Shown: piece after piece, positions 29,801-47,288 of the stretch | How positions within the stretch are numbered: position 1 is the stretch's first letter | Layout of the letters: each line of letters begins with the position of its first letter | Source: a virus | Lineage: Duplodnaviria; Caudoviricetes | DNA: 59,970 nucleotides | Reading direction: 5' to 3' (one strand) | Virus record (IMG/VR): IMGVR_UViG_3300044953_000493 | Span: 1-59,970 of that record | The notes under the pieces: generated by a model | The model's database searches: none | Told to the model about the DNA's origin: nothing | Seen by the model: the letters and a program-made list of their open reading frames with translations, nothing else | Position numbers and translations under genes: made by a program

Positions 29801-32800
29801 AGTTTAATATTTCTGAAGATCCATATCCAATTCCATTGTCTGATAAATGTACGGAAGTAATTTGACCTCTAAATATTGGTTTAATTATTGATTTAAAAGT
29901 TTCAGATCCTACTGAAGAAATTCCAACATCTCCAACAATTTCAACATTAATTTCCGGATAATTAAAAATATGTGTTCCAGATCCAGTGGAATTGAAAATA
30001 ACAAATTGCTTTGTTCGATAATATAAATCTTGATTTGTAGATCCTATACCTACTTGAGATAATCTAAATTTATTGTTATCAACTGTTGTGACATAATAAG
30101 AAGTGTTTGTTGTGAGACCACTAATTAAAGTTCCATCAACATTGTAAGTTACAATTTCTCCTGACTTATAATCATGATTTTCAATTTCAACGATACTTAA
30201 AGCAGTGTTAATTCCTGATGATAATACGGTTCTTTTTTTATTTTCATATCCACTTCCAGTATCGATAATGTTGATTGAACCAACTACTGATTTTTTGTTA
30301 TATGATTGAAAAGTATGATTTCCAACTCCGTATGACGATAAAACAACAGTATTAATTCCAGAAACCGCATCGTCTAATGTTTTGTGTAGTTTAATTACAT
30401 GTGGAGAAATTGTAGATACGTAGTATGAAGAATCTGTCGAAAGACCTCCAACTCCAGTTTGTCCATATGTTCTATAGAGGACTCTTTCAGAATTTTGAAA
30501 TTTATGATAGGTTCCAAATCCAATTGTTGAGACTGTACTTCCAATTCCTACAAAAGCAGATTTACTCTCAGAGTTAAATGATGTTTCGTGATCAATCAGT
30601 TTCATATTGACACTGGCACTTGCACCAAAACCATTTCCACCAGTTATGTTTATAATTGGAGTGCTTTGATAGTCAAATCCAGAATCAATAATTCTAATCT
30701 CAGATAAAAATCCTTTTACTGCACAATATCCAGTAGCTCCATATCCAACAGCATCGGATATGATCAAGGTTGGAGGAGTAATTATATCGTATCCAAATCC
30801 TGGTGAGATTACATCGATATTTTTAAGTTTTCCATAATAAACTAAATCAGATGACTTATAATTTAATATTTCAACACCATTAATTAATATTCCAGTGAAT
30901 CCAGGGTTAGTTGGATATATATTTCCATCGTTGATTGGAGGACATACTTCTCTTAATAATTTTTGAGGAAGAAGTGTTTTCGATTTAAAATCATAAAGTT
31001 CTATTTTATTGTCAGATACCGTTGTTGAATCACTTACATATTCAAAATTTGAATAATATATACTATCTTTACTCTTTGCAAATTGAATATTGTTTTGATC
31101 GATTCTTTTAACATAATAAATTCCCTCATCAAAAAGAGAATTTGTAGGAGTAGGAGGAGTATAATAAACAATATCTCCAGTGTAAAATCCGTGATCTCTT
31201 GTAGAAGTTATATTAAATATGTTAGTTGATCCGATTCCAGATGAAGGAAAAGTTCCAGAAAATATTATAGACTTATTGTATAAATTTAAAGGTTGATTAT
31301 AATATGATGGTAAAGATGGAGAAGCAACTAATAATTTTTCATTTAATTTATATAAGTTTTGAACATTTGAATTTATATTTGATAAGTTTTGAAAAGTATC
31401 TGATTTTGTTTTTAATAAATTTCTTCTTATAATATATTGATCTTTTGAAAGAATTCCCTGACCAGAAATTGAAAACGATGTAGAAGAAATTATATTTGTA
31501 ATTGTTGATACTTTTTCACTTCCACTGAAATTTAAAATCTTAATTGAATCTCCGATTTTAAAAATATGTGGAGTCTTAACAACAATATTGTAAGTATAAT
31601 CAAATGTATTTTGTAAAATTATTGAATCAATTTCAATTTCGTAGGATGATGCAATATTTAAAAACCAGTTATTAAAGAGATAATCATCAACATCAACTCC
31701 AAGAGTTTTTATTTGTGCGGTATCTCCGACATGATAATATCGAGTGTTGTCTTCGATTGAACATGATTTAATAACAGAATTAATTCTTACTTTAATTAAT
31801 TCGTTCGATACTTTTGCATATGCATAAGTATTAATTCCAACTTCAGATTTATCTTTAATAGTTTTTAGTATTTCAGAACAATCAAAAAATTGTGTGAATG
31901 ATTTGTTTGAATATGATATCACTCCCACAGTATTATCATCGTAAATTACTGAAAGATTTCCACTTTGTGGAAATCCGATTGTAGAATCTACTGATAATGT
32001 TGTAGTTCCTGTAGAAACAGACTCAATTAATCTTGTTTTTGAATGAACCGAAAAATTACCATATATTGCACCTCTTACTCTAATATCGCGGCTGTAATTA
32101 GAATCTAAACTTAATTTATAGTAAGTTTTTCCTATTCCAGAATTTATAATCTCTACATTTGTAATTGGTGCATATGCTTTTGAAATATCATGATATTCGT
32201 CTTGAAATAATGTTGCTTTTATCAAATTTAAGGGATTCCCTTCAATACTTTCTACAACTAAATCGTCTGTAATTTGATAATTTGCATCTGATGATCGAAA
32301 CAAATAATCTTTAGGACGAATAATAACTGCTCTTTCTCCATACAGTGCATTAAATAAAATTTTAAATGACTCGTCAGTTCCTTTACTTAAATAAAAATCT
32401 TTTGCTTGTTTAATAAAGAGAGATTGATTGATATTTGAATTCAAAGTTCGGTTTTCAAGTCCTGGTAGTAATTGATATTTGATTTTAAGTAAAAATTCTT
32501 TTAAAAATAAAGAACTTAAGTTTTTAATTACTGATCCTGAGGCATGTTCTGCTACCTCACTTTCTGCAAAAACTAATTGATCTGGATGATTTTGTTTCGT
32601 AAGTGATGTAACTCCAGAAAATCCTCTAATACATCCAGTAAAAGAATTTGGTGTTTTTTTTGTATATGCGATAATTTCGTCATCAATTTGCAAAATTCCG
32701 TAAGAATCTGGAAATCCCTCTGTTGCCGTATTACTTAAATCTACAATAATTTCCGTATCAAAAAAAGAAATACTTGATTTAAGAATCGTTGAGTCTGCTT

Positions 32801-32987
32801 GTTTAGTTATTTCATCAACATTGATATATCTATCAATATTTTGAATTAAATCTGCAGGAGCTCCTTTAAACTCTTGAGAAACATAATATTGTGATAAAAA
32901 TTCAGAAATTAACGGAAATTCTTCTATTACATAATTTGGAAGTTGATTTTTAACAATATTGTTAAATTGAATTCTTTTTTCTTTCAT
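20850..32987 (-). CDS. gp7: baseplate wedge initiator, very large (4045 aa), with a YHYH-like domain
   Basis: FYLSKGTDESFKILFNALY, QDSFYYQNFSYSIKS...HTSGF, HSPIIGWAYDGNPIYGPYGY; follows gp6. Confidence 0.88.
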   Translation of the reverse strand: MKEKRIQFNNIVKNQLPNYVIEEFPLISEFLSQYYVSQEFKGAPADLIQNIDRYINVDEITKQADSTILKSSISFFDTEIIVDLSNTATEGFPDSYGILQIDDEIIAYTKKTPNSFTGCIRGFSGVTSLTKQNHPDQLVFAESEVAEHASGSVIKNLSSLFLKEFLLKIKYQLLPGLENRTLNSNINQSLFIKQAKDFYLSKGTDESFKILFNALYGERAVIIRPKDYLFRSSDANYQITDDLVVESIEGNPLNLIKATLFQDEYHDISKAYAPITNVEIINSGIGKTYYKLSLDSNYSRDIRVRGAIYGNFSVHSKTRLIESVSTGTTTLSVDSTIGFPQSGNLSVIYDDNTVGVISYSNKSFTQFFDCSEILKTIKDKSEVGINTYAYAKVSNELIKVRINSVIKSCSIEDNTRYYHVGDTAQIKTLGVDVDDYLFNNWFLNIASSYEIEIDSIILQNTFDYTYNIVVKTPHIFKIGDSIKILNFSGSEKVSTITNIISSTSFSISGQGILSKDQYIIRRNLLKTKSDTFQNLSNINSNVQNLYKLNEKLLVASPSLPSYYNQPLNLYNKSIIFSGTFPSSGIGSTNIFNITSTRDHGFYTGDIVYYTPPTPTNSLFDEGIYYVKRIDQNNIQFAKSKDSIYYSNFEYVSDSTTVSDNKIELYDFKSKTLLPQKLLREVCPPINDGNIYPTNPGFTGILINGVEILNYKSSDLVYYGKLKNIDVISPGFGYDIITPPTLIISDAVGYGATGYCAVKGFLSEIRIIDSGFDYQSTPIINITGGNGFGASASVNMKLIDHETSFNSESKSAFVGIGSTVSTIGFGTYHKFQNSERVLYRTYGQTGVGGLSTDSSYYVSTISPHVIKLHKTLDDAVSGINTVVLSSYGVGNHTFQSYNKKSVVGSINIIDTGSGYENKKRTVLSSGINTALSIVEIENHDYKSGEIVTYNVDGTLISGLTTNTSYYVTTVDNNKFRLSQVGIGSTNQDLYYRTKQFVIFNSTGSGTHIFNYPEINVEIVGDVGISSVGSETFKSIIKPIFRGQITSVHLSDNGIGYGSSEILNYNRQPNIILDSGSNAQLTPIIQNGKIVDVIINKSGINYSTPNIFITGSGSGASITPIVQNGSITSVKIINSGIGYSQKSTFISITSPGSSCKFDSKIQTWRVNLFEKYFNNISNDDGILSNGINKNYQLEYSHLYAPRKLREIIYSVNQNGEILYGSPDLIKVNNEEQLNSKHSPIIGWAYDGNPIYGPYGYITRQGGIVSPMKSGYELNSSQQRPNFPLGFFVEDYVCSKKSDETVLDENNGRFCVTPEYPNGTYAYFATINNISVDNSGPFKNYRRPVFPYLIGNNFKSIPNEFNFKVASNQDDFNINETSWLRFTTPYNIINKTASYPYLSTPNNLNQTVDVEFAMPGSIESVGIDSGGDGYKINDSIVFDNSDTNGSGADAKVSRIKGKSVTLVSTATSTISNAEFLSGEEKNSFTIYTENPHNLNNNDVISISGLNTTSTSLQLSSYNINVTTSTLSLNMGVGTVGATGIVTYFYVTGNLSPTNIRENDIFTISTERIKILNIDSFNSRIRVLRQIDNTVGVSHTATEILYENPKKLKIITGITTSYDYKLNRQIYFNPLDSVGLGTTAGVGIGTTLTLSNPGAGITQIFIPTKTIYLPNHKLETGDILTYSPNIGSPIGVSTNGISTSVTLTNQSQVFVAKISQDLIGISTVKVGLGSTGVFVGIASTTNGLSTLFFTGIGTGTHHSFKTNYDSITGKISRNLVTVSTSQTHGLTTEDSVFISINPSISTTFSVKYNDHNRRVVINSKDFISAGVNTSTNTISIVNHGFLNGQKIIHISSSPSGGLQNNQIYYVVIVDSDTFKLSNTYYSATSLIPEIVEITSASNGTLSPVNPAIKLYKNSSITFNLSDSSLSYVNQSTLYPAFQFKFYKDCNFIEEFNTSKTSNIFEVQKTGIIGVTTTAKIVLNVNENTPEKLYYNLIPIYDNNTPQIKREVVIDTLVKDYNELQIENSEYNGEYNISVTTPSSFTYNLIQSPESVSYTSLTSSITYETSSSSAFGPIAEFKIRNKGKNYYSLPGVATITSAFGTNAIVEVFSSSIGKIKKTKISDIGFDFSSDNTVRPTVYFPQIIKVDPLSSFLSIGISSAGKGYRSAPKLIVIDNKTKNVIPEVDLRYSLGDTQVTILKNTFGINNSLPIILPTENTNGVGISSITFNNFTKIVTVTLSVGFSTANSFPFQVNDKVLIENISIGIGSIGRGYNSKDYNYNLFTLTSVTPNLGGIGSVSYSLSEFLGSSEIPGDYDSTNSSGRIIPQKHFPIFNPILSKNNFLTGETINSNSSTGTVENWDQKNNLLIVSSKDNFYTNFSIEGFTSKTQGNITSVERRDSFFKTGSTSKVKRGWKFNSGFLNDNLQKIQDSFYYQNFSYSIKSKIDYDTWNDVVSTLNHTSGFRKFADYQLESSLSETNKNSLVVRIPTNLTSVEVTNIIVSEVNLNCVHDFDLVKENYLQIGNSSFSDEIIFSSRILTDYEESVGNRVLSIDDISSQFNSNPRATRYGDIHTFKLSDARVQKYLIYVKDRRYTDERQCEFVTLLHDDTTGFLNQYAKVYSVNDLGSFDFTIQGKDGILQFYPIKYIVNNYNISIISYNVKGILSGISSANYGGIVDVVGTSVSSASLGSTCTIVSVANTYTSSKVLVEVTGSNGQYEFDELNIIHDGSNIQFLEYGQLTSNSMSPYSSSGLGTYHSYFSGSNLIVDFIPNTGLAVTCNTLKISIANTSYTGVGTFDMKYSLLEARTTSIASSTSPIATPIGHYTNINSDNFDYDCAHFLVQVSDSVNNHHQLSEVLVFHNSTDTFITEFANIETASGLGTVGVSRTDTHTKITFTPNPNIEVQVKSFMNALQIADEASDITKIDLTNSSIVTNSNIYEGTETLIKRDFNLQHKTDDIFRRNFNGSDPLIVDILNNTIKIPNHFMVTGEEFIYSNTGAGSTQAIGIASTSFVGIGITDKLPATVYAVKVSNNLIKLASSAKNALKSTPEVLNFTSVGIGSFHTFNAINQNEKVIIALDNLIQSPIVSTSVTSLLSKHLLISEDIAYFTGITSFFGGDLIKINDEIMRIDRVGIGSTNAFLLKRPRLGTTVVGHLAGSLVTKVIGNYNIVNNTLNFSEAPYGNIPVSLPTNDSDERDWTEISVSSSFQGRVFLRSGTPNSSDEAYSKNYIFDDISQNFNGDKKSFTLTSNKSNVTGIGNENSVILINDIFQGPGSNSNYTLLENSGITSISFTGTGVSAIYDVNTSKLPRGGIIVSVGSTGGFGYQPLVSAGATVTISIAGTISAISIGNSGSGYRSGIQTNVRVGVTTSSTGTPSIQYIGIASVNTGNIVSIAITNPGTGYTSTNPPEVIIDPPLSYSEIPLIYSNSSVSGSGVNAVANIIVGQGSSVIDFELVNLGYGYEQEQILTVAIGGTAGIPTTGSASFREFQLSIEKTNSDKFSGWSIGELKVLDNYDALFDGSRTQFPILDSGSLISIRPSLGSPINVQDVLLIFINDILQIPGDGYIFNGGSVITFTEAPKSGDTSKILFYKGSGSIDVISRNILETVKEGDELTIGYDAYLKQSAFFQEDERTVTRITSTDTVDTLPYFGPGNTSNSNLLRPVVWCRQTEDKIINAQIIGKNRILYEPLIYPTAYLIKSVGIGSTIIYVDNIRPFFNPINENDASLTFQKNITLISQDNRVGATATSIVSSGGTVTSIVISDGGVGYTITPTVSISQPIGFGTTAAQNTALASATMTNGTITDIAVTFEGSGYISTSVPQVLIESPTLILESDSVNTYSGDSGVIVGFGTTTVSSIDQVIFDFFIPTASYLRDTSVVGTAITVSGIGTGDYFLIHSSNVGFAKTSIKSRDNSNNIIGIGTNFVDNVYQVESVSNVSVANTMIGIATVGSATTTIRRVFARISGISTFTFDNTNIRFDSTIFTFDSLRTDSGGGYSGDIIASNYFGNFSWGKIELTARNEENEFNFYGDRGVGGITTSAIVQRTNPFKFKNYVI

Positions 32988-38284: not shown

Positions 38285-38319
38285 ACTATAGAGACAGTTT
38301 CAGTGGCTCAGTAAGATTA

Positions 38320-38529
38320 TTAAAGACTCTCAAGAACTTCACGATAATCAATGAATTTAATACACCAACCGGTTGCAGATGTGATCTCTTCAATTAGATC
38401 ATCTTCGTCACATGCTTCCCAGATCTGTCCTAAAGTTTCATTCACAATTTCTTCTTGAAGTTGAGAAGAAATTGTACCAAAAGAATCCTCAAAATCAAAC
38501 TCAATGTTAGTAACTTGAAATTGCATCAT
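38320..38529 (-). CDS. acidic hypothetical early protein
   Basis: VTNIEFDF...DDLIEEITSATGWCI. Confidence 0.75.
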   Translation of the reverse strand: MMQFQVTNIEFDFEDSFGTISSQLQEEIVNETLGQIWEACDEDDLIEEITSATGWCIKFIDYREVLESL

Positions 38530-38789
38530 TTGCCTAATAAACCTCTCTCACGCAATTCTCTATCAATACAATCGAAGATTTCACTATAAAGGTAATCATA
38601 ATCTTCCTCGATGCTGTTGAGAACTTCGAATGCAACTTCACGATTCACAGGTATCTTGATTTGCACTTTATAAGTGCAGACATCATCATTGGTGAAGATA
38701 AACGCAGCACAGGGAGCATCTTCCCCCTGATACTCAATTAACTGATTCACGCGATCGCGAAGATTTGCCAGAGTGTTGTTAGTTGTCAT
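38526..38789 (-). CDS. hypothetical early protein
   Basis: QGEDAPCAAFIFT; ATGA overlap with the next gene. Confidence 0.75.
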   Translation of the reverse strand: MTTNNTLANLRDRVNQLIEYQGEDAPCAAFIFTNDDVCTYKVQIKIPVNREVAFEVLNSIEEDYDYLYSEIFDCIDRELRERGLLGK

Positions 38790-38824
38790 TTGCCAGAGTG
38801 TTGTTAGTTGTCATTGGATTTGTA

Positions 38825-39139
38825 TCATGCCAGACGCATTCCTGAGAAGAAAGGAATCGTGCCGTGATTCATGTTAACAAACCACTTACCTTTACGTTGG
38901 AAAATACCTTCATGAGGCAATCCAAAGGCACTCAGAATAGCATTGAGACGTGATTTGGTAGTCTGAGACTGCCAACCACCATCGAACAATTCGATCCAAG
39001 TTTCACCAATTCGAGCAATTAAATTACCATGCAAAAATACATCCACAACATTCGAACATGCAATCACTTCGGTATTAGCAACTTTGAGATCTTTGCCTGC
39101 TTTGATAGCAGCAATCATTTGAGATTCGATCTTACGCAT
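38825..39139 (-). CDS. conserved phage hypothetical protein (MRKIESQM...TTKSRLNA)
   Basis: VFLHGNLIA, GGWQSQTTKSRLNAIL; behind element copy 2. Confidence 0.8.
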   Translation of the reverse strand: MRKIESQMIAAIKAGKDLKVANTEVIACSNVVDVFLHGNLIARIGETWIELFDGGWQSQTTKSRLNAILSAFGLPHEGIFQRKGKWFVNMNHGTIPFFSGMRLA

Positions 39140-39237
39140 GTTGGTTGATTGGTTGTTCATACTATAGGAACAGTTTCAGGGGCCCAGTACTATGACTGAA
39201 AGGCACTCAAAGTTGAGACAGAATGAAAGTATTCACC

Positions 39238-39315
39238 TGGTGGGGACAGTCGGACTCGAACCGACAAAGTTAAAGTTGGCGCGCCAGCTTCAACCAATTC
39301 CGCCAAGGTGCCCCC
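39238..39315 (-). ncRNA. tRNA-like RNA with acceptor stem, T-arm and encoded CCA but no canonical anticodon arm
   Basis: GGGGGCA/TGTCCCC 7-bp stem, GTCGG-TTCGAGT-CCGAC T-arm, A-CCA end; central GGTTGAAGCTGG-CGCG-CCAACTTTAACT hairpin. Confidence 0.7.
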
Positions 39316-39389
39316 ATGTGCCAGATGATCGCTGGGAGCATGAAATCAAACTCCCACTATCGGGACACTTTCGGGGGCCCTATTAGTAT

Positions 39390-39800
39390 AAAGAACCTTA
39401 TATGGCCTTAAATTTATAGATACTAAAAAACCTTCGAATTACATCGATAATTTCAAAAGCACACAAGAAACTATTATCGGAATCCGAATTTTTTATATAA
39501 GATCTTATTAAAGTAAACTCACTCTTTATATATTTCCAAGTTGTTGAGACTTGACGATTTTATTGCGCCGGAGACCGCGTTCTAACTCCCTCTTTTTATA
39601 ACAAAAGTTTAAGTTTAATGATACCACGATGTATCACTCAACTCATTTGAATTTTAGAATCATTCAGTCTGAGTAACTTAATACTTATCATACAGGGAGT
39701 TCTTTTTATCCACTGTTAGAAGACTTATCTCACCGGGCAAAGCCGTCTGTTGTGCTCCTATGGGAAAGAACTATATAAACATTAAGCTTAAGTTTCTTTT
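39390..39800 (-). ncRNA. candidate ~410-nt structured non-coding RNA
   Basis: No ORF of 60 aa or more; TATAAATA at 39818-39825; terminal complementarity and several internal helices. Confidence 0.55.
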
Positions 39801-39817
39801 CTGTGATTCTACGATTC

Positions 39818-39825
39818 TATTTATA
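39818..39825 (-). promoter_or_regulatory. late promoter TATAAATA pointing into the ORF-free segment
   Basis: Exact T4 late consensus just downstream of the stop at 39830. Confidence 0.7.
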
Positions 39826-39829
39826 CAAT

Positions 39830-40003
39830 TTACCATCTTTCAGGCCGACTGAGATCCTCAATATATGCCTCACAATTTTCTGCAGGTTCTAATTCAAATA
39901 ACTTTTCCCAGTCTAATTGATGTGGATCAAAATCATTCAAAACATTAAGTTCTAATGTCACTCTATATCTTTGTTTTTGGGCTTGAGAATACGCAACAGA
40001 CAT
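39830..40003 (-). CDS. conserved hypothetical protein (MSVAYSQAQKQRYRVTLEL...DFDPHQLDW)
   Basis: Likely start at 40003; TTGACA-N17-TATCAT promoter at 40032-40060. Confidence 0.75.
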   Translation of the reverse strand: MSVAYSQAQKQRYRVTLELNVLNDFDPHQLDWEKLFELEPAENCEAYIEDLSRPERW

Positions 40004-40149
40004 AATTGATGCTCCATTGATGTATGAGAACATGATAAGATATCTTGAGTTAATTGTCAAGCATCCTTAAAGATATTTATGAAATTTTTGTGTTTTTGAA
40101 TGTGACTGTGAAATTTTGTAATTCTGGTGTCATGAGTTTTTCTGAGGCA

Positions 40150-40178
40150 TTGACATTTCAGCGAGTTTATGATATTAT
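40150..40178 (+). promoter_or_regulatory. plus-strand sigma70-type promoter TTGACA-N17-TATTAT with extended -10 TG
   Basis: Near-perfect consensus, opposite to all genes and divergent from the promoter at 40032-40060. Confidence 0.65.
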
Positions 40179-40201
40179 GCGCGCAAAGATCACAAGAACT
40201 C

Positions 40202-40298
40202 AAGACATTTATAATACATTAAATCACTCAAGAACGCATAAGACATTTATAATACATTAAATCACTCAAGAACGCATAAGACATTTATAGTGCATTAA
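40202..40298. repeat. 38-bp tandem repeat, about 2.5 copies
   Basis: AAGACATTTATAATACATTAAATCACTCAAGAACGCAT at 40202 and 40240, partial at 40278. Confidence 0.9.
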
Positions 40299-40412
40299 TT
40301 CTCAATAATATCACCTAATTGATTCTCAATAATCAAACTTATTGAGAATGAGATTAACAACTCTTTTATATTAAATAATATATTAAAAAATAATATCATA
40401 TCAAAACAATAT

Positions 40413-40442
40413 AAAAAAGAGAGGAATTTTGATTTCCTCTCT
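40413..40442 (-). terminator. intrinsic terminator
   Basis: AGAGAGGAA/TTCCTCTCT stem followed by a T run on the minus strand. Confidence 0.7.
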
Positions 40443-40500
40443 ATGATAAACAATCTCTTCAATGAAAATATAATGTTTATACTATAAAGTTTGACTCCAC

Positions 40501-40743
40501 TTAATAAGTTGAAATCCAGTCCAAATCTGCTAAATGATCTGCTACATCTTCCTTGAGATTGTTAAGATCAATCAATACATTCTCGATTGTAGATGATGTC
40601 CAACCGATTACAAATGGAGGATTATCATCACACTTTGCATCATCATGATAGTTCACTGATTTGCACTTTACAAGTACATCTTGCAGTGATTCAATGATAC
40701 AATCAAAACGATGTTGAATGTTCAAACGATGTTGAATGTTCAT
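40501..40743 (-). CDS. hypothetical early protein
   Basis: 80-aa ORF; PFVIGWTSST resembles PYAVGYSRTA in 45909..46106. Confidence 0.65.
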   Translation of the reverse strand: MNIQHRLNIQHRFDCIIESLQDVLVKCKSVNYHDDAKCDDNPPFVIGWTSSTIENVLIDLNNLKEDVADHLADLDWISTY

Positions 40744-40812
40744 TTGAATTTCAGATGAAGAATTGAGTGTAAGACATGAGAGGTAACGATCATTGGTTTG
40801 TGTAAATACTTA

Positions 40813-41115
40813 TCAACTTGGCACATTCTCATCCAAAAGTTCAGGATAATCATTTTCAATTTCAGTAATCAGTTGTGCGTCAGTATATCCGGAAAGATTA
40901 TCTTCTAAATAATATCCTACAATACGCATCAAATCTTTAATGTCCATATCATCTAATATACTATCAATATCAGTATATGAGGAACAATCGAAAAAATTTT
41001 CTTCTAAATAATCTCCTACAATACGCATCAAATCTTTAATGTCCATATCATCTAATATACGATCAATATAAGCATCAAGAATTGTTTGTCGATTGAAATG
41101 AGTGTGTGTGTTCAT
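40813..41115 (-). CDS. acidic hypothetical protein with an internal duplication
   Basis: Likely start MNTHTH at 41115; ILDDMDIKDLMRIVG occurs twice (offset 99 nt). Confidence 0.7.
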   Translation of the reverse strand: MNTHTHFNRQTILDAYIDRILDDMDIKDLMRIVGDYLEENFFDCSSYTDIDSILDDMDIKDLMRIVGYYLEDNLSGYTDAQLITEIENDYPELLDENVPS

Positions 41116-41143
41116 GATTGAAAAAGTTGTTGATTGTTTTGAT

Positions 41144-41311
41144 TTATCGAGAAGGAAAGTTTGTACAAATAGCATCACAAATAATCCGAGTGAGATCATT
41201 CATTTGATCGGGATATTTATTCTTCCAAGTATCATAAAAGAAACTTTCAACTATACATTCAACATCATTCATTAACTGTTCACGAGCAGTTAACATATCA
41301 AGTTTGTTCAT
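41144..41311 (-). CDS. small hypothetical protein (MNKLDMLTAREQLMNDVECIVE...)
   Basis: 55-aa ORF read manually; first gene behind element copy 4. Confidence 0.7.
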   Translation of the reverse strand: MNKLDMLTAREQLMNDVECIVESFFYDTWKNKYPDQMNDLTRIICDAICTNFPSR

Positions 41312-41446
41312 TGTTTTTGAATTGAAAGAGTTGTTGATTGTTTTGATACTATAGGGACACTTTCAGGGGCCCAAAGAAAAAGAAGATTTAAGAGACAAAT
41401 AATCAAATATATTCATCTAGGCATAAACCTTCATAAAACTCATTCT

Positions 41447-41866
41447 CTAGGGACATTTATTTGCATATAAATAACCTCCAGACCAATCTGCTCTGCGCAG
41501 TAGTTCTTCTCTTGAATAATCATCTAAAAGATTGTAACGAACACCTTTTGCAGGTGCATGATATGATGCAGGTTTGAAACAATCACCAGTAATCATATTC
41601 ACAAACATATGAACTGATTTTGAACCACCAAAATTTGATATGTGAAAAATTCTGAAATATTTTTTACCTTTTTCAAATACATATTCATCAACACCTTCAC
41701 CTTCAGATAAGGCATCAATTTGTTGTTGATGATATTCAACATTTTTTCCCTTTTCAATCAAGTTTCGATGCGATTGAATTGCATAAGTTTGATAACGAAT
41801 ACGTAAAACCTCACAAAGAAGTTTTACATATTTCAAAACAGTTTGAGATTGTGTAGTTTGAGTCAT
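41447..41866 (-). CDS. conserved phage hypothetical protein
   Basis: SVHMFV...TGDCFKPASYHAPAKGVRYNL...ADWSGGYLY, a widespread myovirus early family. Confidence 0.8.
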   Translation of the reverse strand: MTQTTQSQTVLKYVKLLCEVLRIRYQTYAIQSHRNLIEKGKNVEYHQQQIDALSEGEGVDEYVFEKGKKYFRIFHISNFGGSKSVHMFVNMITGDCFKPASYHAPAKGVRYNLLDDYSREELLRRADWSGGYLYANKCP

Positions 41867-42148
41867 AATCAGCGGCCAAAATCAACGGGAATGAATAACC
41901 AAATAGCACGATCTGTGCCCATTGTAAATTGATTATCCCAGATAAAATGCGTTGCTTCCTGATTACTCAGATTGCAATGATTCATCAGATGATTGACTGC
42001 TTCCTTGAAGGATGTAAAGCGAAAAGTGTTGTTCATTTGAGTTTCAGTTTGAGTGATTGAAGCACTTGTTTGCGAGATTTAAGTTTTCCTTTACAAATTC
42101 CTTTTGTATTCTTTTGTTTTCCAGAGTTGTGTTGCCAGTTTGGTGTTC

Positions 42149-42403
42149 TCATCGTGAATAACTCTTTGCGATTTGTTTCATAACATTACGTGCCGATAAC
42201 ATAAACTGATAGGGAGTCGATAACATAAACTGATAGGGAGTCACATTTTTAGAATCATAAGAGTCGTTGAAGATGTTCGCAAAAACATCAGTTTGATTAA
42301 AAGTGTTCACAATCAGAGCACAAGCATCATAGAGTGCTGCCTTGTGCTCCTCTTCAGACTTGAAAGAAAATTCAGCCATTGAGGAAAAACGATTGGAGTT
42401 CAT
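42149..42403 (-). CDS. hypothetical early protein
   Basis: Behind element copy 5; TPYQFMLS duplicated. Confidence 0.65.
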   Translation of the reverse strand: MNSNRFSSMAEFSFKSEEEHKAALYDACALIVNTFNQTDVFANIFNDSYDSKNVTPYQFMLSTPYQFMLSARNVMKQIAKSYSR

Positions 42404-42441
42404 ACTCTTGAGACACTTTCAGGGGCCCAGTTTTCATAAAC

Positions 42442-43290
42442 TTAAGATAAAGCATTCAACAGCGGATTGATAGTCTCAGTGTACGCGGTGACTGTGACAC
42501 GATTCTCAATTCTGCGAGTGCAAATATTGTAATACTTTTCATCAATCTCAAAACCAATATAGTTTCTGTTGGTTTCAATGCAACAAACAGCAGTTGTTCC
42601 TGCTCCCATAAAAGGATCTAGAACCAAATCACCTTCATTACTCCAGGAGAGAATGTGATCTTTTGCAAGTGCCTCTGGAAAAATAGCAGGATGCTCAAAT
42701 GCCGCATCATCTTTTGATGAATAATTCTTTCCTGTGTTATATTTCCAGATATTATTACGTGGACTAAACTCTGGAATAGGTTTAATGTTGCGTTCAACCA
42801 AAGATCCATCTTTGGCACGAATCGTACCTTTACCAAAGTGAGTATAACCTACCCAACGATTTTGCTTGTCACAGAGCAGATTTGCAGTCTTTGGTTTTGT
42901 TTTTTTAGAAAGGACAAACATATACTCAAATACTTGAGAATACCTGTTACCATCTCTACGAGCAGGAAATGGACTACCATTTTTTTCATAGATCATGGTA
43001 TCATGCAAAACAAATCCAAGATTCATAAAATGTAGTGCTTGGCGAAAAGAACTACCAGTTTCGCTAGATTTAATTACAGCATCTCCCACAACCCAAACAA
43101 CAACTCCACCAACTTTCATGACTCGATAGAGTTGTTGTGCTACTTTCTTAAATGATTCATAATTCCATGAAGAACTGTTATTATAGGAACGAAGATCGTC
43201 ATAAGGAGGAGAAGTAACGCACAAGTCGATCACTTCATTCTCCAGAGTCTTCATTCCATCAATGCAATTTGAAAGAATGATTTGATTCAT
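42442..43290 (-). CDS. DNA amino-methyltransferase, beta class (N4-C or N6-A)
   Basis: N-terminal motif IV TSPPY, HPAIFP, C-terminal motif I VLDPFMGAGTT, YIGFEID. Confidence 0.93.
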   Translation of the reverse strand: MNQIILSNCIDGMKTLENEVIDLCVTSPPYDDLRSYNNSSSWNYESFKKVAQQLYRVMKVGGVVVWVVGDAVIKSSETGSSFRQALHFMNLGFVLHDTMIYEKNGSPFPARRDGNRYSQVFEYMFVLSKKTKPKTANLLCDKQNRWVGYTHFGKGTIRAKDGSLVERNIKPIPEFSPRNNIWKYNTGKNYSSKDDAAFEHPAIFPEALAKDHILSWSNEGDLVLDPFMGAGTTAVCCIETNRNYIGFEIDEKYYNICTRRIENRVTVTAYTETINPLLNALS

Positions 43291-43940
43291 GCTGCAGGTT
43301 CAAACTGAAGATATTTACCGTTGCGATTGGGAAGACGAAAGTTCCCCCATGCAACTTGTTCCTTGACTTTATCATAATCATTCACAGAAATCAAGAGTAT
43401 AGTGCGAGAATTGGATTTAGTTGCACTACCACGACGAATCAAATTAAGATTATCAAAAACACCAATAAAGATCTCATCAATCAAATTAACATGTCCCGAA
43501 ATAACTTGAAATACATTAGCATTTTCATTGATACCATATTTGATGCCAATGAAATCAATTAAATCATCCTCTTTTTTTGAAGCATGAGTAGAACCAGTCC
43601 AAGAATTTCTTCCACTGGTTCCTTTAATTTCCCAAATTACACCTTCAATCGTTACATCTCCAAAAGAAGTACGATATTTTTTGACATTAAACTTATCGGC
43701 AAGAGCACAGGTAAGAACAGACTCAAGAATACGTCCAAGATAAACAAAAACTTCATTACGATCCTCTGAACCAAGTTCAGAAAATTTGATTTGATCAGTA
43801 TCAATGACTTTTTTTGCAAGTTCACGATTAAGATTGCGAAAAATCGGACAATAACGAATGTCTTTATTCAATTCTTTAAGAATTGATTTTACAATCCTAG
43901 AATCAGCAAAGAAGTCACGAATGTCAGTAGAAAGAGTCAT
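43287..43940 (-). CDS. putative PD-(D/E)xK restriction-like endonuclease
   Basis: E...GDVTIEGVIWEIK pattern; ATGA overlap with the methyltransferase. Confidence 0.5.
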   Translation of the reverse strand: MTLSTDIRDFFADSRIVKSILKELNKDIRYCPIFRNLNRELAKKVIDTDQIKFSELGSEDRNEVFVYLGRILESVLTCALADKFNVKKYRTSFGDVTIEGVIWEIKGTSGRNSWTGSTHASKKEDDLIDFIGIKYGINENANVFQVISGHVNLIDEIFIGVFDNLNLIRRGSATKSNSRTILLISVNDYDKVKEQVAWGNFRLPNRNGKYLQFEPAA

Positions 43941-43983
43941 GAGTGAAAACTGAGTATGAGTTAAAGCTAAATGGTATTTGGCA

Positions 43984-44181
43984 TCAGGGGGAAATCACTA
44001 TGCCACTTTGCAAACTGAACTTTTTATGTTGCTTAATATATGCACGTGCCTGTGACACAGTGTTGATAACATCAAGTTGTTGGCCATTGTGTATAATAAT
44101 GTATCCTGAGTTTCCATAAGAAATTGCTGCATAGGTGTCCTTATACATTTTGAATCCTTTTTTCATCGCCCCATTCATCAT
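43984..44181 (-). CDS. hypothetical protein
   Basis: YAAISYGNSGYIIIHNGQQL. Confidence 0.7.
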   Translation of the reverse strand: MMNGAMKKGFKMYKDTYAAISYGNSGYIIIHNGQQLDVINTVSQARAYIKQHKKFSLQSGIVISP

Positions 44182-44224
44182 AGCAGTCAGGAAAGAAAGG
44201 CATTCTTCATCCTCATAAGATAGT

Positions 44225-44446
44225 TCATTTGATTATAACATCCGTATGAGGATTGTAAGTGCATTTCCAACTGAAACCATCGTCACCAGTGCTCATTCTC
44301 TCACTCCAAACACCGCCATTCGCAAAGCATTCTGCCTTGTCGTGGTGATACTCTGAACTGTAAAGAAAAAGAACACCAATCACAATACCAATCACTAATA
44401 GTGTTGAAAGAATGCTAGAAATTCGTTGTTGAGTTTGATAGTTCAT
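44225..44446 (-). CDS. small membrane protein with a Cys pair
   Basis: One transmembrane segment, then C...GGVW...C. Confidence 0.6.
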   Translation of the reverse strand: MNYQTQQRISSILSTLLVIGIVIGVLFLYSSEYHHDKAECFANGGVWSERMSTGDDGFSWKCTYNPHTDVIIK

Positions 44447-44673
44447 AAAACCTCCCATTCAGTTTCCCAGTGGCAATCGTTGCTGACATTGACGAAAACT
44501 CTCGAGATATTGGTAATCAAATTTTTTTGCTTCTGCAAAGTAATCCGTCTCATATTGATTATCGTAACCAGTAAGAAAAAAATCTTCTGGATCAGGATCA
44601 CAGTATAACCTTTTAAACTCCATAGAAGTTTAGAGAGACAATTTAGTTCAAAAGTGTTAAAATCAATCATAAT

Positions 44674-45852
44674 TCATCTTTTAATGGTAGAAATTGCAGG
44701 TTGTCCATCACGAAATACCGTATCAACAACTGCCTGCACTTTGCGTGAGGTACTGATACCAACATTGTCATACACAGGTACACAAACCAGACCAAACTTT
44801 TTGGTTTCGTCACCCAAACGAATCACTCGTCCAATGCTCTGACTGAATCCAATGTAGTCCATATTTCGCATAAACAATACTGCTTCCAATCCAGACACAT
44901 TGATACCCTCAGACAGAATGCTATGATGTATCACAACGAAACGCTTACTGCTATTCTTACCCCAAGCATTGAGAGTATCGAAGAATACTTCACGATTCAC
45001 TTTTTTACCATCAATGATTGCACCAGTCTTGGCAGTGATATACATCCAAGAGTAATCAAGTTCTTGTAATCGAGCACAGAAATTTGATTGAGACACAAGG
45101 CCCATAATCTGCTTGGTAGAGCGAGCACAAATCAAAATCTTATTGAGATTCTGATCATAAATCGTTTCCATCAGATTGTCAGCATCACGTTGAAAAATCA
45201 TCTGACGATCTGAAATCATAGGTAGTTGCTTGATGACAACTTTAGGAGGTAATATGTAACCCTGTTTGACTAACTCAGGAGCAGGAACTTGACAAATAAC
45301 CTGATCATAAACCTCAGAAAGATTCATTCCTGGTTTAGATATTGTGTTGGAATGTTTCGGCGTTGCAGTAAAGAAATAACAACGATTCGCATAAGCACTG
45401 AAGTGTTCAGTTGCAGGAAAAAAGTGACTCTGAACGCTGTTATGTGCCTCGTCAAAGTAGATCGTATTCACATCAATCTCGGCATTCACCAGACGCGAAA
45501 GAGAGTGATAGGTAGTGAATAATAACTTATGATGAGATTTATGACTCTCTACCCAAGCACGAATTTCTGTGGATCGAGTAGATGATTGATGATGAGTTTC
45601 ACCGCTGTGAATGTGAAATACTTGTGCATGAGTGATAAACTCTAAAAACTCACTGGATAACTGTTCTGCAAGCAAAATACGCGGTGCCACAATCACAATC
45701 GTCTGTGGAGTTTCTGATTGAAACTCTCTGATACAATCTGTAATCATTGTGAGAGTTTTACCGCCACCAGTTGGTACAATCAACTGACCTCTATTGTGTT
45801 TCTGCATGGCATCAACACCACGAATCTGATGAGGACGCAGTTGAATGTTCAT
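44674..45852 (-). CDS. superfamily 2 helicase (type III restriction Res-like / DEAH)
   Basis: LRPHQ, PTGGGKT, DEAH, TATP, LSEGINV, QSIGRVIR; likely start MNIQL at 45852. Confidence 0.9.
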   Translation of the reverse strand: MNIQLRPHQIRGVDAMQKHNRGQLIVPTGGGKTLTMITDCIREFQSETPQTIVIVAPRILLAEQLSSEFLEFITHAQVFHIHSGETHHQSSTRSTEIRAWVESHKSHHKLLFTTYHSLSRLVNAEIDVNTIYFDEAHNSVQSHFFPATEHFSAYANRCYFFTATPKHSNTISKPGMNLSEVYDQVICQVPAPELVKQGYILPPKVVIKQLPMISDRQMIFQRDADNLMETIYDQNLNKILICARSTKQIMGLVSQSNFCARLQELDYSWMYITAKTGAIIDGKKVNREVFFDTLNAWGKNSSKRFVVIHHSILSEGINVSGLEAVLFMRNMDYIGFSQSIGRVIRLGDETKKFGLVCVPVYDNVGISTSRKVQAVVDTVFRDGQPAISTIKR

Positions 45853-45908
45853 TGTGTTGTGATTCATACTATAAGAACACTTTTGAGGGCCCAGAGTTGA
45901 TTCAATCT

Positions 45909-46106
45909 TCACGAGTTCGAATAACTTAAGATCTTAATTTGTTCTCGAATCTGAAGCATTGCGGTACGACTATATCCTACTGCATAAGGATAAGATAGTT
46001 CTGTCAGTGTAGATTTAGAATCTACATTGTTGCACACATTAATTGCACTCTCAAGTCCCTCAATTAGAGTCTCCAGAGTTGTAATCGGAACATTCACAGT
46101 TTTCAT
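45909..46106 (-). CDS. hypothetical early protein
   Basis: Single ORF bracketed by element copies 7 and 6. Confidence 0.75.
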   Translation of the reverse strand: MKTVNVPITTLETLIEGLESAINVCNNVDSKSTLTELSYPYAVGYSRTAMLQIREQIKILSYSNS

Positions 46107-46158
46107 AATTTTAGAGTGATTATACTATAGGGACACTTTCAAGGGCCTAGAAAAAAGA

Positions 46159-46737
46159 TTAGGGTTGATAATATGATGCGTCTCTTTCTTTACCTCTGAT
46201 AATATCCCCATGAAGTTTTTTACCTGCTCTTATCATTCTCTTTTTTTCGTCTCTAGTATATTCATTTTTAGTTGTTCTTTCAATCCTTCCTTCACCTTTT
46301 GGTTTTTTTGGTTTCCTTTTTGATAGGATTTCAGTTGCTTGTTTTTCTAATTTTTCTAAATCTTTTGGTTTTGGTTGTTGAACTGTTGGTACAGATTCAC
46401 CTGCTTTTCGTGCAGCAATTCTTGCTAATGCTGCTTTTTTTCTTTCTTCTTTTGCTGCCGCAGCTGCTGCTGCTTTTACATCAGTAGAACCACGCTCTTG
46501 TTCTGGTTGTTGAACTCTTGTTTCTGTTGAACGTGTAGTGCCAATATCAGAGCGTGGTTTATATGGTTTTGCAGGCAATCTTGTACCTCCTGGCCCTCTT
46601 CTTGTTCTTCTTCTTTCAGGGTCAGTTTTTCTTCTTTCTGGAGCAATTCTTCCCCCTTCACCTGTACGAATAATCTGTGCCCCAGACATAAAAGAGGCAT
46701 CATATGCTTCTAAACAGAATTGAGAAAAAGACTTCAT
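46159..46737 (-). CDS. basic late protein, possible internal head protein
   Basis: MKSFSQFCLEA N-terminus; AATAAATA late-type promoter at ~46759-46766; Lys/Arg-rich. Confidence 0.65.
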   Translation of the reverse strand: MKSFSQFCLEAYDASFMSGAQIIRTGEGGRIAPERRKTDPERRRTRRGPGGTRLPAKPYKPRSDIGTTRSTETRVQQPEQERGSTDVKAAAAAAAKEERKKAALARIAARKAGESVPTVQQPKPKDLEKLEKQATEILSKRKPKKPKGEGRIERTTKNEYTRDEKKRMIRAGKKLHGDIIRGKERDASYYQP

Positions 46738-46757
46738 TTTTAGATTTTATTTTTTTA

Positions 46758-46967
46758 TTATTTATTCTCTTCATCTAATTTGTCTTGAGTTACTTTACTG
46801 CCTCTTGATACAAGATCATTTTCATAAAAATAAGCAACTCGATCACGTCTTGCTTGAAGAAGAAGATTATATTCTTCTTGTTGTTGTTTCGTAAATTGAA
46901 AATTTTGTTTTCTCCAGGATACTTCGAGTTCACGAAGATGTGGAAGAACATTTAGAGTGTCAGTCAT
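46758..46967 (-). CDS. hypothetical protein
   Basis: WRKQNFQFTKQQQEEY...ARRDRV. Confidence 0.75.
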   Translation of the reverse strand: MTDTLNVLPHLRELEVSWRKQNFQFTKQQQEEYNLLLQARRDRVAYFYENDLVSRGSKVTQDKLDEENK

Positions 46968-47230: not shown

Positions 47231-47288
47231 TTTGAATTCCAAGGTTAATGTTTTCATAATAAGAACACTTTCAGGGGCCCAAACTTAT

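What the first reader, a model, noticed from the sequence alone, without database searches (positions are those of the whole stretch)
39238..39355. tRNA mimic lacking an anticodon loop, with its own early promoter
Seen (minus strand): GGGGGCA-CCTTGGCGGAATT-GGTTGAAGCTGG-CGCG-CCAACTTTAACT-TT-GTCGGTTCGAGTCCGAC-TGTCCCC-A-CCA. The acceptor stem, T-arm and CCA are intact and a Leu-like TGGCGGAATTGGT is present. The anticodon arm is replaced by a 12-bp hairpin (one mismatch) capped by a tetraloop. A GGGAG/CTCCC leader hairpin precedes it and 26-bp elements flank it on both sides. A well-paired replacement helix argues against random decay. Inference: a non-decoding RNA processed like a tRNA, such as a decoy for tRNA-targeting defence toxins (CCA-modifying or nuclease), a synthetase or RNase P sponge, or a mimic of the tmRNA tRNA-like domain.
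Basis: partly seen in the sequence, partly recalled or inferred. Interest (0 to 1): 0.75.

Follow-up and report, generated by a model that had tools for sequence, protein, structure and literature searches.

The report
Anticodon-less tRNA-Leu derivative in cyanophage cassette
A freshwater T4-like cyanophage carries, behind its own promoter-like repeat, a 78-base RNA gene that keeps the two ends of a leucine tRNA but has a plain hairpin where the anticodon should be; it is a one-off found in no relative, so it is more likely a young remodelled tRNA remnant than a proven new tool.

Summary
On the minus strand, 39315..39238 is a 78-nt element. It has a 7-bp acceptor stem, A73, an encoded CCA, a perfect T-arm and a Leu-type D-loop word. 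In place of the D-stem and anticodon arm it has an 11-pair hairpin with one mismatch and a tetraloop. ARAGORN and Rfam do not call it a tRNA.

It is tRNA-Leu-derived: its 3' third is 28/29 identical to annotated phage tRNA-Leu genes.

The flanking "26-bp elements" are two of about 10 copies of a promoter-like repeat in a T4-like cyanomyovirus. The two nearest relatives at this locus lack exactly the 195-bp promoter-to-promoter unit. A third population carries 142 other bases in place of the 95 that hold the element.

No homologue turned up in the pattern scans of IMG/VR, JGI metagenomes and GTDB genomes, or in a covariance-model search of 44 related records. Covariation therefore cannot be tested. 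Helix stability is only marginally better than shuffles.

Best reading (0.5): a recently shuffled, remodelled tRNA-Leu remnant that is probably transcribed and matured like a tRNA but cannot decode. A selected mimic, perhaps leucine-accepting, stays open (about 0.3). Interest is moderate.

The parts
39356..39380 (-). Upstream copy of the promoter-like repeat (GGGCCCCCGAAAGTGTCCCGATAGT). The -10-like hexamer is GATAGT, where the relatives have TATAGT.
   Evidence: motif family; same copy in L007/L008, but there followed directly by the gp96-like gene.
39316..39355 (-). 40-nt leader. It holds the hairpin GGGAG(39355-39351)/CTCCC(39338-39334), then AGCGATCATCTGGCACAT, with U at -1 before G1.
39238..39315 (-). 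78-nt tRNA-Leu-derived element. Acceptor 5' strand 39309-39315; single-stranded D-loop-like stretch 39296-39308; helix 5' strand 39284-39295; tetraloop CGCG 39280-39283; helix 3' strand 39268-39279; linker 39266-39267; T-arm 39249-39265; acceptor 3' strand 39242-39248; A73 at 39241; CCA 39238-39240.
   Evidence: structure; not called a tRNA; tRNA-Leu likeness.
39233..39327 (-). 95-nt swapped module (12 nt + element + 5 nt). Its ends CATCTGG / CCAGGTG can pair, joining the leader to the CCA and trailer. Another population has 142 other letters here.
   Evidence: joint 39232->39328 in run X6; loose ends at 39232 and 39328/39330 in X1 and X2; pairing in the 171-nt fold.
39186..39237 (-). Trailer between the CCA and the next promoter copy. 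No intrinsic terminator.
39161..39185 (-). Downstream copy of the promoter-like repeat (GGGCCCCTGAAACTGTTCCTATAGT), which serves the gp96-like gene.
38825..39160 (-). Kyanoviridae Gp96-family gene. The real start is probably Met8 at 39139.
   Evidence: PF23790, E 9.6e-39, residues 8-110; many relatives align from residue 8.
39381..39829 (-). About 450 nt without an ORF upstream of the cassette. It is nearly identical in L007/L008 and anchors the comparison.
   Evidence: no Rfam or GenBank-phage match.

Best explanation
The element is a remodelled derivative of a leucine tRNA gene. It is carried as the cargo of one promoter-to-promoter shuffling unit in a hyperplastic region of a freshwater T4-like cyanomyovirus.

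Shown:
- Both ends (acceptor stem, T-arm, A73, CCA, Leu-type D-loop word) are tRNA-Leu-like.
- The D-stem, anticodon arm and variable arm are replaced by one hairpin, so there is no anticodon.
- The 195-bp unit bounded by two copies of a repeated promoter-like motif is absent from the two nearest relatives at this locus.
- A third population holds different cargo in the same leader/trailer frame.

Inferred:
- The unit moved in (or out) by recombination between promoter repeats, as described for PeSL cassettes of T4-type phages.
- It is transcribed from the upstream repeat, cut by host RNase P before G1 and trimmed to the encoded CCA, giving a stable 78-nt RNA that cannot read a codon.
- Because it is a singleton with no conserved relatives, I take it to be a young evolutionary by-product. 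It is made and matured like a tRNA simply because it kept the signals, and carries no demonstrated selected role.
For: - Structure and non-decoding nature.
- tRNA-Leu origin: the 3' third is 28/29 identical to the GAP32 tRNA-Leu. 24 of the 40 listed rows are annotated tRNA-Leu, 4 are tRNA-Tyr and 12 are unannotated. The alignment shows an identical 17-nt T-arm, an acceptor stem that differs at 5:68 and 6:67 with pairing kept, and the shared D-loop word.
- Host virus: Kyano_Gp96, gp25, gp6 and T4 neck protein.
- Promoter-like repeat: 9 matches against 0 expected, 10 copies, each ahead of an ORF. The same motif precedes a genuine tRNA-Leu(UAA) in L008.
- Indel of exactly one unit: 2 of the 2 relatives that share the near-identical upstream 450 nt lack it.
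- Cargo polymorphism.
- Not an assembly artefact: separate contigs of runs X1 and X2 cover the element with 0 differences, at the same depth as the flank. These runs may, however, be the source samples.
- Singleton status: no homologue in the 80 gp96-anchored loci. In 44 related records the only covariance-model hit is an ordinary tRNA-Leu. In 95 loci with the Leu D-loop the next best score is 36.1 bits against 111.1 for the element itself. Pattern scans of IMG/VR, JGI metagenomes and GTDB genomes also found none.
Against: - All the changes relative to a tRNA-Leu lie in the central 43 nt, while the 12-bp acceptor/T stack, T-loop, A73 and CCA are flawless. That pattern would also fit selection on a minihelix.
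- The replacement helix has about the length of a stacked D-stem plus anticodon stem.
- The element is the majority allele in two lake runs (depth 6.3 against 3.1 in X1; 168.8 against 44.2 in X2).
- No expression data exist either way. The one RNA run laid had 0 contigs on the stretch.
- The direction of the event (gain or loss) and the ancestor tRNA are unknown.
- The upstream -10-like hexamer has G where the relatives have T, so promoter strength is uncertain.
Confidence: 0.5

Rival explanations
1. It is a selected, non-decoding tRNA mimic. The RNA is matured like a tRNA and folds into an L-like shape: an acceptor/T stack plus a 10-12 layer rod. It acts through its acceptor end. The most specific version is that it keeps bacterial leucine identity (A73, A14/A15, G18G19 analogues, canonical T-loop) and is charged or bound by LeuRS. 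It would then serve as a Leu donor outside the ribosome, a LeuRS/EF-Tu competitor, or a decoy for defence toxins that attack tRNA 3' ends.
For: - The acceptor/T minihelix, U-1, G1-C72 and ACCA are intact, and the element has its own promoter copy.
- The Leu D-loop word is aligned to real tRNA-Leu genes.
[quoted passage not shown] The same passages say tRNA-Leu variants lacking the anticodon arm and variable arm remain chargeable; this cites Larkin et al. 2002, which I did not read myself.
- Helix pair probabilities are 0.94-0.96.
- It is the majority allele in X1 and X2.
- Other viral contigs also hold tRNA-Leu-like genes with intact ends and reduced central arms, including a GACAA-loop pair of groups with covarying stems.
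Against: - It is a singleton, so no covariation test is possible.
- Helix stability is not clearly above shuffles (0.036 for the chosen sub-window, 0.33 for the core).
- In the predicted fold the G18G19 analogues (nt 21, 22) are paired, and three extra bases sit before the U8 analogue, so the elbow may not form.
- The nearest relatives do without it.
- A decoy for anticodon nucleases is impossible without the loop.
Confidence: 0.3
2. It is a silent pseudogene. The remnant is not transcribed to a stable RNA at all, and the flanking repeats matter only as recombination sites.
For: - The -10-like hexamer of the upstream copy is GATAGT instead of TATAGT.
- No RNA contigs lay on the stretch (weak, one run only).
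- There is no sigma-70 -35 box and no terminator.
Against: - A at position 2 and T at position 6 of the hexamer are kept. Other copies of the motif that sit ahead of ORFs are at least as divergent (AAGAGT, TATTAT).
- Read-through from upstream would still yield an RNase P substrate.
Confidence: 0.12
3. It is a miniature of the tmRNA tRNA-like domain that binds SmpB or enters stalled ribosomes.
For: The topology is that of the tmRNA tRNA-like domain as I recall it: acceptor, stem-less D-loop, a helix in place of the anticodon arm, then the T-arm (read).
Against: - There is no G3.U70; pair 3:70 is G-C and the only wobble is 5:68.
- There is no tag reading frame and there are no pseudoknots.
- ARAGORN calls no tmRNA, and no tmRNA family appears at E <= 10.
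- The D-loop word and A73 are Leu-type.
Confidence: 0.03
4. The stretch is really a small protein-coding cassette (a 23-codon ATG frame from 39342, or a 51-codon open frame ending at 39190) and the tRNA likeness is incidental. Alternatively it is a chimeric assembly.
For: Open frames exist. The alternative 142-nt cargo could be a small ORF (inference from 30 + 15 known letters only).
Against: - No protein shares three 5-residue words with the 51-residue frame (only proteins of 28-90 aa were searched).
- The 29-nt near-identity to tRNA-Leu genes plus a matching 5' acceptor strand is not expected by chance.
- Independent contigs reproduce the sequence.
Confidence: 0.05

Closest known systems
Phage-encoded tRNA-Leu genes (e.g. 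Cronobacter phage GAP32 tRNA-Leu, JN882285.1 301093-301180; tRNA-Leu(UAA) of relative G008)
   Same: Identical 17-nt T-arm, ACCA end and A73. The acceptor stem differs at two pairs with pairing kept. The TGGCG(G/A)AATTGGT D-loop word is shared.
   Different: No anticodon stem-loop, no long variable arm, and a D-stem reduced to 2 possible Watson-Crick pairs. There are 3 extra bases before the U8 analogue. It is 78 nt against 85-88 nt. It fails ARAGORN and Rfam.
PeSL mobile promoter cassettes of T4-type phages (Arbiol et al. 2010, PMC2839356: listing and start of abstract seen; Comeau et al. 2014, PMC4122927: passages read)
   Same: A conserved promoter-containing repeat is scattered through a hyperplastic region ahead of small ORFs. 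Indels and replacements between close relatives are bounded by the repeats.
   Different: The motif here has only a -10-like box, with no TTGACA-type -35 at 17 nt and no clear stem-loop part (a GGGCCC palindrome only). The cargo is an RNA gene. Puxty et al. 2015 (PMC4503421, passages read) saw few PeSLs in cyanophage S-PM2.
tmRNA tRNA-like domain
   Same: Order of parts: acceptor, unpaired D-loop, a long helix where the anticodon arm would be, a short linker, T-arm, CCA. This is recalled, and compared with the sequence.
   Different: No G3.U70, no mRNA part, Leu-type rather than Ala-type features, and not detected by ARAGORN or Rfam.
Engineered minimalist tRNA-Leu (Larkin et al. 2002, known to me only through passages of PMC9976931)
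   Same: A leucine tRNA body without the anticodon arm and variable arm that keeps A73 and the D/T-loop corner. Such constructs stay substrates of E. coli LeuRS.
   Different: Those are laboratory constructs with an intact D-arm. Here the D-stem is lost, and charging is untested.
T4 RNA C and RNA D (small stable RNAs from the T4 tRNA region; 'biological roles are unknown', PMC3014915, passage read)
   Same: Small non-tRNA RNAs encoded by a T4-type phage in association with tRNA genes, of unknown role.
   Different: I had no T4 sequence in hand, so no comparison was made. Here there is no tRNA cluster in the 60-kb window.
Reduced-anticodon-arm tRNA-Leu-like genes in other IMG/VR contigs (L139/L148, L105/L162/L110, L096/L168, L142)
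   Same: Leu-type D-loop, intact acceptor and T-arms, no ARAGORN call. They are solitary: ARAGORN found no tRNA in 11 of the 14 such loci checked.
   Different: Those keep the D-arm and still pass Rfam's tRNA threshold (33.9-43 bits). The window's element scores under 16 bits and has one long helix.

Membership tests
Canonical tRNA (Rfam RF00005 / ARAGORN) | 7-bp acceptor stem, discriminator, T-arm with GTTCRANNC-type loop | tested here: met
   Sequence; fold; 28/29 match to annotated tRNA-Leu genes.
Canonical tRNA (Rfam RF00005 / ARAGORN) | 5-bp anticodon stem with a 7-nt loop carrying an anticodon | tested here: not met
   ARAGORN finds 0 genes. No placement of a 17-nt arm pairs (sequence). 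The fold gives a tetraloop hairpin.
Canonical tRNA (Rfam RF00005 / ARAGORN) | D-arm (3-4 bp stem) directly after U8-N9 | tested here: not met
   Only G13-C29 and C14-G28 could pair, each with probability 0.0 in the ensemble. There are 3 extra bases before the U8 analogue.
Canonical tRNA (Rfam RF00005 / ARAGORN) | Score at or above the curated threshold | tested here: not met
   No match at gathering score. The best match in the tRNA clan is 15.1 bits against 47.
tmRNA | G3.U70 alanine identity pair | tested here: not met
   Pair 3:70 is G-C; the only wobble is 5:68.
tmRNA | Tag-peptide reading frame and pseudoknots between the two halves of the tRNA-like domain | tested here: not met
   Only a 28-nt hairpin lies between the halves. 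ARAGORN reports no tmRNA.
tmRNA | SmpB binding | not testable with these tools
   Needs a binding assay.
PeSL-type promoter cassette | Repeated promoter-bearing motif ahead of variable small genes in a hyperplastic region | tested here: met
   9 matches against 0 expected, all on one strand; 10 copies; the same motif occurs 4 times in L008.
PeSL-type promoter cassette | Insertions, deletions or replacements between close relatives bounded by the motif | tested here: met
   A 195-bp unit is absent from L007 and L008. L008 lacks or gains other units.
PeSL-type promoter cassette | Stem-loop (terminator) joined to a sigma-70 -35/-10 promoter | tested here: inconclusive
   Only a -10-like hexamer is present, with no -35 at 16-18 nt. 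The one terminator-like hairpin overlaps the -10 of this copy alone.
Leucine-accepting tRNA (bacterial LeuRS substrate) | A73; A14/A15; G18G19 free to meet the T-loop; U54-A58, U55 and C56 in the T-loop | tested here: inconclusive
   A73, the AA and GG of the D-loop word and the TTCGAGT loop are present. The GG is paired in the predicted fold, at 0.69 and 0.95. The identity rules come from PMC9976931.
Leucine-accepting tRNA (bacterial LeuRS substrate) | Aminoacylation by LeuRS | not testable with these tools
   Needs a charging assay.
YrlA / bacterial Y RNA tRNA-like module | Match to the Rfam family; closed acceptor continuing into a long Ro-binding stem | tested here: not met
   No such family appears at E <= 10. 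Only a 7-bp leader/trailer pairing is predicted.

The most novel reading that the evidence does not exclude
Phages repeatedly make non-decoding, leucine-type tRNA look-alikes, and this element is the most derived example. It would be promoter-driven, matured by RNase P, CCA-ended and still recognised by LeuRS, which ignores the anticodon. It would then act through its acceptor end. It could work as a leucine donor or as a competitor for synthetase or EF-Tu. It could also be a bait for host defence enzymes that modify or cut tRNA 3' ends. The GACAA-loop tRNA-Leu-like genes with covarying stems seen in unrelated viral contigs would belong to the same unrecognised class.
Probability: 0.15. Interest if true: 0.75.

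Novelty: new variant of a known kind. Interest (0 to 1): 0.4.

Why it matters
If it is only a remnant, it is still a clean snapshot. It shows a tRNA gene being carried, swapped and reshaped as cargo of a promoter-bounded cassette in a cyanophage, a group where such cassettes were thought to be rare.

If it is selected, it would be a natural counterpart of the laboratory 'minimalist tRNA-Leu'. It would also give a testable case of a virus using a tRNA body for something other than decoding, at a time when tRNA-targeting defence and phage counter-defence are being mapped.

The two coexisting alleles (tRNA-like cargo against 142-nt cargo) offer a ready-made natural comparison.

Tried and rejected
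**Searches for homologues (all negative)**
- megablast and blastn of the region against GenBank phages: no match.
- blastn-short against the 80 gp96-anchored loci: only one 13-nt word.
- Exact 28-mer of the 3' half in IMG/VR: 0.
- D-loop plus T-loop pattern in IMG/VR: 95 stretches, none with this architecture.
- T-arm pattern in IMG/VR: 20 stretches. 17 were ordinary tRNAs (Leu 6, Phe 5, Thr 4, Met 1, Gly 1) and 3 were uncalled.
- D-loop plus T-arm pattern in JGI metagenomes: 0.
- Single-sequence covariance model R1: in 44 related records the only hit was an ordinary tRNA-Leu(UAA). In 95 loci plus the window there were 143 hits at E <= 0.1, all ordinary or odd tRNAs at 36.1 bits or less.

**Searches for the cassette frame or the alternative cargo (all negative)**
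- 30-mer loose end of the other allele.
- Trailer 24-mer.
- Leader 28-mer.
- Trailer 31-mer with up to 3 mismatches, in 50 of the 80 related records. The other 30 were not searched.
- Anchor pattern in metagenomes.

**Search for a donor tRNA in GTDB genomes**
- The 3' 22-mer gave 0.
- My 5' pattern was badly designed. Its N{2,5} gap excludes the normal 1-nt spacing. It returned 44 stretches, of which 4 were tRNA-Leu of other lineages and 40 had no ARAGORN call and look like chance matches in coding sequence. It was uninformative.

**Other checks**
- Coding reading: no protein relative of the 51-residue frame (near lengths only).
This says nothing either way.
- Upstream 450-nt non-coding stretch: no Rfam match and no GenBank phage match.
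- Literature: searches (tRNA-like / phage / 'lacks an anticodon' / decoy / pseudo-tRNA) listed no paper describing such a phage element. That is two full-text searches, not proof that none is in print.

**Readings rejected**
- N4-type hairpin promoter or a single-subunit phage RNA polymerase promoter. The virus is T4-like and the motif carries a -10-like box.
- attP remnant. Both acceptor strands are present, and the phage type is lytic.

Full report
**1. What is in the sequence**

On the minus strand, 39315..39238 reads GGGGGCA-CCTTGGCGGAATT-GGTTGAAGCTGG-CGCG-CCAACTTTAACT-TT-GTCGG-TTCGAGT-CCGAC-TGTCCCC-A-CCA, 78 nt in all. The parts are:
- A 7-pair acceptor stem, one pair being G5.U68.
- A perfect 5-bp T-stem with a canonical T-loop.
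- An A discriminator and an encoded CCA.

Between these lies a 13-nt unpaired stretch holding the leucine-type D-loop word TGGCGGAATTGGT. After it comes a hairpin of 11 pairs (2 are G.U) with one C/A mismatch and a CGCG tetraloop.

RNAfold returns this structure as the minimum-energy fold. Helix pair probabilities are 0.94-0.96, against 0.0 for the residual D-stem pairs. No placement gives a 5-bp stem with a 7-nt loop.

ARAGORN finds no tRNA or tmRNA gene in the whole window. Rfam has nothing at gathering score. In permissive mode the best tRNA-clan match is tRNA-Sec at 15.1 bits, E 3.1.

The leader hairpin GGGAG/CTCCC and U at -1 are present.

**2. Is it more than chance?**

The tRNA-like ends are. 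Positions 50-78 match annotated tRNA-Leu genes of large phages at 28/29, E 4e-4 against 2.3 Gb. Of the 40 rows listed, 24 are tRNA-Leu, 4 are tRNA-Tyr and 12 are unannotated.

Aligned with the GAP32 tRNA-Leu, the 17-nt T-arm is identical. The acceptor stem differs at pairs 5:68 and 6:67 with pairing kept. The D-loop word is shared. The anticodon loop, half of its stem and most of the long variable arm have no counterpart. Three extra bases precede the U8 analogue.

The central helix, by contrast, is only marginally special. With 1000 dinucleotide shuffles, the fraction folding at least as well was:
- 0.036 for the hand-picked nt 21-48;
- 0.33 for the core nt 8-50;
- 0.075 for the whole element.

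In one search, 12 of 200 shuffles folded as well.

**3. Context**

The window is an IMG/VR viral contig, about 28% complete by CheckV. It carries the gp25 and gp6 baseplate proteins, a T4 neck protein and a Kyanoviridae Gp96-family gene. That makes it a T4-like cyanomyovirus. The runs that hold it are lake-water metagenomes.

The "26-bp flanking elements" are two of 9-10 minus-strand copies of GGGCCCCYGAAASTGTYCCKATAGT, against 0.00 expected. Each copy sits ahead of an ORF. TATAGT looks like a -10 box: A at position 2 and T at position 6 are kept in all variants seen. There is no -35 box at the usual distance and no terminator after the element. The ATGAAC that often follows the hexamer is part of the motif. 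The Gp96 family match and many relatives begin at Met8. Nothing I ran shows that the motif is an 'early' promoter.

**4. The key comparison**

Only two IMG/VR contigs share the roughly 450-nt non-coding stretch upstream, which is nearly identical. In both (L007, L008) the upstream motif copy is followed directly by the Gp96-like gene. The window has an extra 195 bp, exactly one motif-to-motif unit, holding the leader, the element, the trailer and a second motif copy.

L008 also shows that tRNA genes can be cargo of such units. It has a normal tRNA-Leu(UAA) about 70 nt behind the same motif.

Laying public contigs on the region showed the following:
- Runs X1 and X2 hold the element unchanged, at the depth of the flank. 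They may be the source samples.
- A freshwater-sediment run (X6) has a contig that joins 39232 to 39328 with 142 other letters in place of the 95 that hold the element. X6 has no depth at 39240-39311.
- The same alternative form is a minority in X1 and X2 (depth 3.1 against 6.3, and 44.2 against 168.8).

The swapped 95-nt module is the element plus 12 nt upstream and 5 nt downstream. Its ends CATCTGG/CCAGGTG pair in the fold of the 171-nt transcript.

This is the behaviour described for PeSL promoter cassettes in T4-type phages (PMC4122927, passages read; PMC2839356, listing and start of abstract only). Here, though, the motif lacks a clear stem-loop and a -35 box.

**5. Homologues**

I found none. 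The searches were:
- blastn-short against the 80 Gp96-anchored loci: one 13-nt word.
- ARAGORN on 51 of those 80 loci: two ordinary tRNAs.
- A covariance model of the element against 44 related records: one hit, an ordinary tRNA-Leu(UAA).
- The same model against 95 viral loci with the Leu D-loop: next best 36.1 bits, against 111.1 for the element itself.
- Pattern scans of IMG/VR, JGI metagenomes and GTDB genomes: nothing of this architecture.

**6. How it most likely works**

Shown: the element cannot decode, it derives from a leucine tRNA, and it is cassette cargo that is polymorphic in nature.

Inferred from established knowledge of bacterial tRNA maturation (recalled):
- G1-C72, U-1, a 12-bp acceptor/T stack, the T-loop and ACCA are the determinants for RNase P cleavage.
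- An encoded CCA allows exonucleolytic 3' trimming.
- Any transcript from the upstream motif, or read-through from upstream, should therefore yield a stable 78-nt CCA-ended RNA.

With no conservation and only marginal fold statistics, my best reading (0.5) is a young remodelled tRNA-Leu remnant. It is made and matured by default and has no demonstrated role.

**7. The main rival**

The main rival (0.3) is a selected mimic. In its favour:
- All the changes fall in the central 43 nt while the minihelix is flawless.
- The hairpin has about the length of a stacked D-stem plus anticodon stem.
- It is the majority allele in two runs.
- Bacterial LeuRS ignores the anticodon and the long variable arm, uses A73 and the D/T-loop corner, and still charges tRNA-Leu lacking both arms (PMC9976931, passages of the leucine identity section; the primary paper was not read).

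Against it:
- It is a singleton.
- The G18G19 analogues are paired in the predicted fold.
- The extra bases before U8 may disturb the corner.
- The nearest relatives lack it.

A tmRNA-like role is disfavoured: there is no G3.U70, no tag frame and no detection by either tool. A coding reading found no protein relative.

**8. Comparison with what is known, and novelty**

The closest things are phage tRNA-Leu genes, PeSL cassettes, the tmRNA tRNA-like domain (topology only), engineered minimalist tRNA-Leu, and the T4 RNAs C and D, whose roles are unknown (PMC3014915, passage read; not compared by sequence).

Other viral contigs hold tRNA-Leu-like genes with intact ends and reduced central arms. 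Those keep the D-arm and still pass Rfam's tRNA threshold. The window's element is more derived.

I rate it a new variant of a known kind (a tRNA-derived gene or pseudogene). Interest is 0.4: the anatomy is striking and the natural allele pair makes it testable, but a single unconserved copy in a fast-shuffling region is weak ground for a new function.

Supplementary files of the papers were not consulted. None bears directly on the claims made here.

Noticed in passing
L139 5180-5250, L148, L105 10473-10543, L162, L110 7598-7669 (IMG/VR loci): These are solitary tRNA-Leu-like genes with an intact acceptor and T-arm. Their anticodon arm is only 3-4 bp closed by the same GACAA pentaloop. The stems covary (AGGC/GCCT against CCC/GGG) and the acceptor stems differ. 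ARAGORN gives no call, and finds 0 tRNAs in 5 of 5 of these loci. Rfam's tRNA model gives 33.9-36.3 bits for the three scanned. This may be a conserved family of tRNA look-alikes that cannot decode in the normal way.
   Followed up: partly
L086, L092, L114, L125, L160, L166 (IMG/VR loci): tRNA-like genes with acceptor AGTCAGG/CCTGACT, the Leu D-loop word and a 29-nt central arm (GATAG...CTC-TAAG-GAG...CTATC) instead of a 17-nt anticodon arm. ARAGORN gives no call. In L092 the gene sits inside an array of 14 tRNA genes.
   Followed up: partly
window 39381-39829 (-): About 450 nt with no ORF of 34 aa or more on the minus strand, nearly identical in L007 and L008 although the neighbouring Gp96-like gene is only 75% identical. 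It begins just after a TATAAATA word (a T4 late-promoter-like sequence, recalled). It has no Rfam match and no GenBank phage match. It may be an unrecognised non-coding RNA or a regulatory region.
   Followed up: partly
window 38285-56450 (-), 10 copies; L008 15-40, 930-955, 1330-1355, 2975-3000: The promoter-like repeat GGGCCCCYGAAASTGTYCCKATAGT, often followed by ATGAAC, marks the starts of small ORFs. Gene content between copies differs between the window and L008: for example, window 40813-42148 is missing in L008. This suggests PeSL-like modular shuffling in a freshwater cyanomyovirus. One copy (45868-45892) lies inside the listed 412-aa helicase ORF, which suggests the real start is the ATG at 45867.
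   Followed up: partly
L008 41-925 and 1025-1100: A DUF6267 protein (PF19782, E 1.4e-81) containing a KIDG word lies directly upstream of the promoter plus tRNA-Leu(UAA) unit. The KIDG word resembles the nucleotidyl-transferase/ligase motif I (recalled). This 76-nt tRNA-Leu has no long variable arm.
   Followed up: no
window 20850-32987 (-) and 4319-11797 (-): Two giant ORFs of 4045 and 2492 aa lie in the structural region between the baseplate and neck genes. I did not examine them.
   Followed up: no
L139 12596-12660 and L096 9846-9916: Type II hammerhead ribozymes (Rfam RF02276, 46.7 and 44.8 bits) occur in two of the viral contigs that also carry odd tRNA-Leu-like genes.
   Followed up: no
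window 40202-40301 (+ coordinates): Three tandem copies of a 38-nt unit (two identical; 24 nt of the third are 88% identical) lie just upstream of a strong sigma-70-like promoter (TTGACA-17-TATCAT, 40060-40032, minus strand).
   Followed up: no
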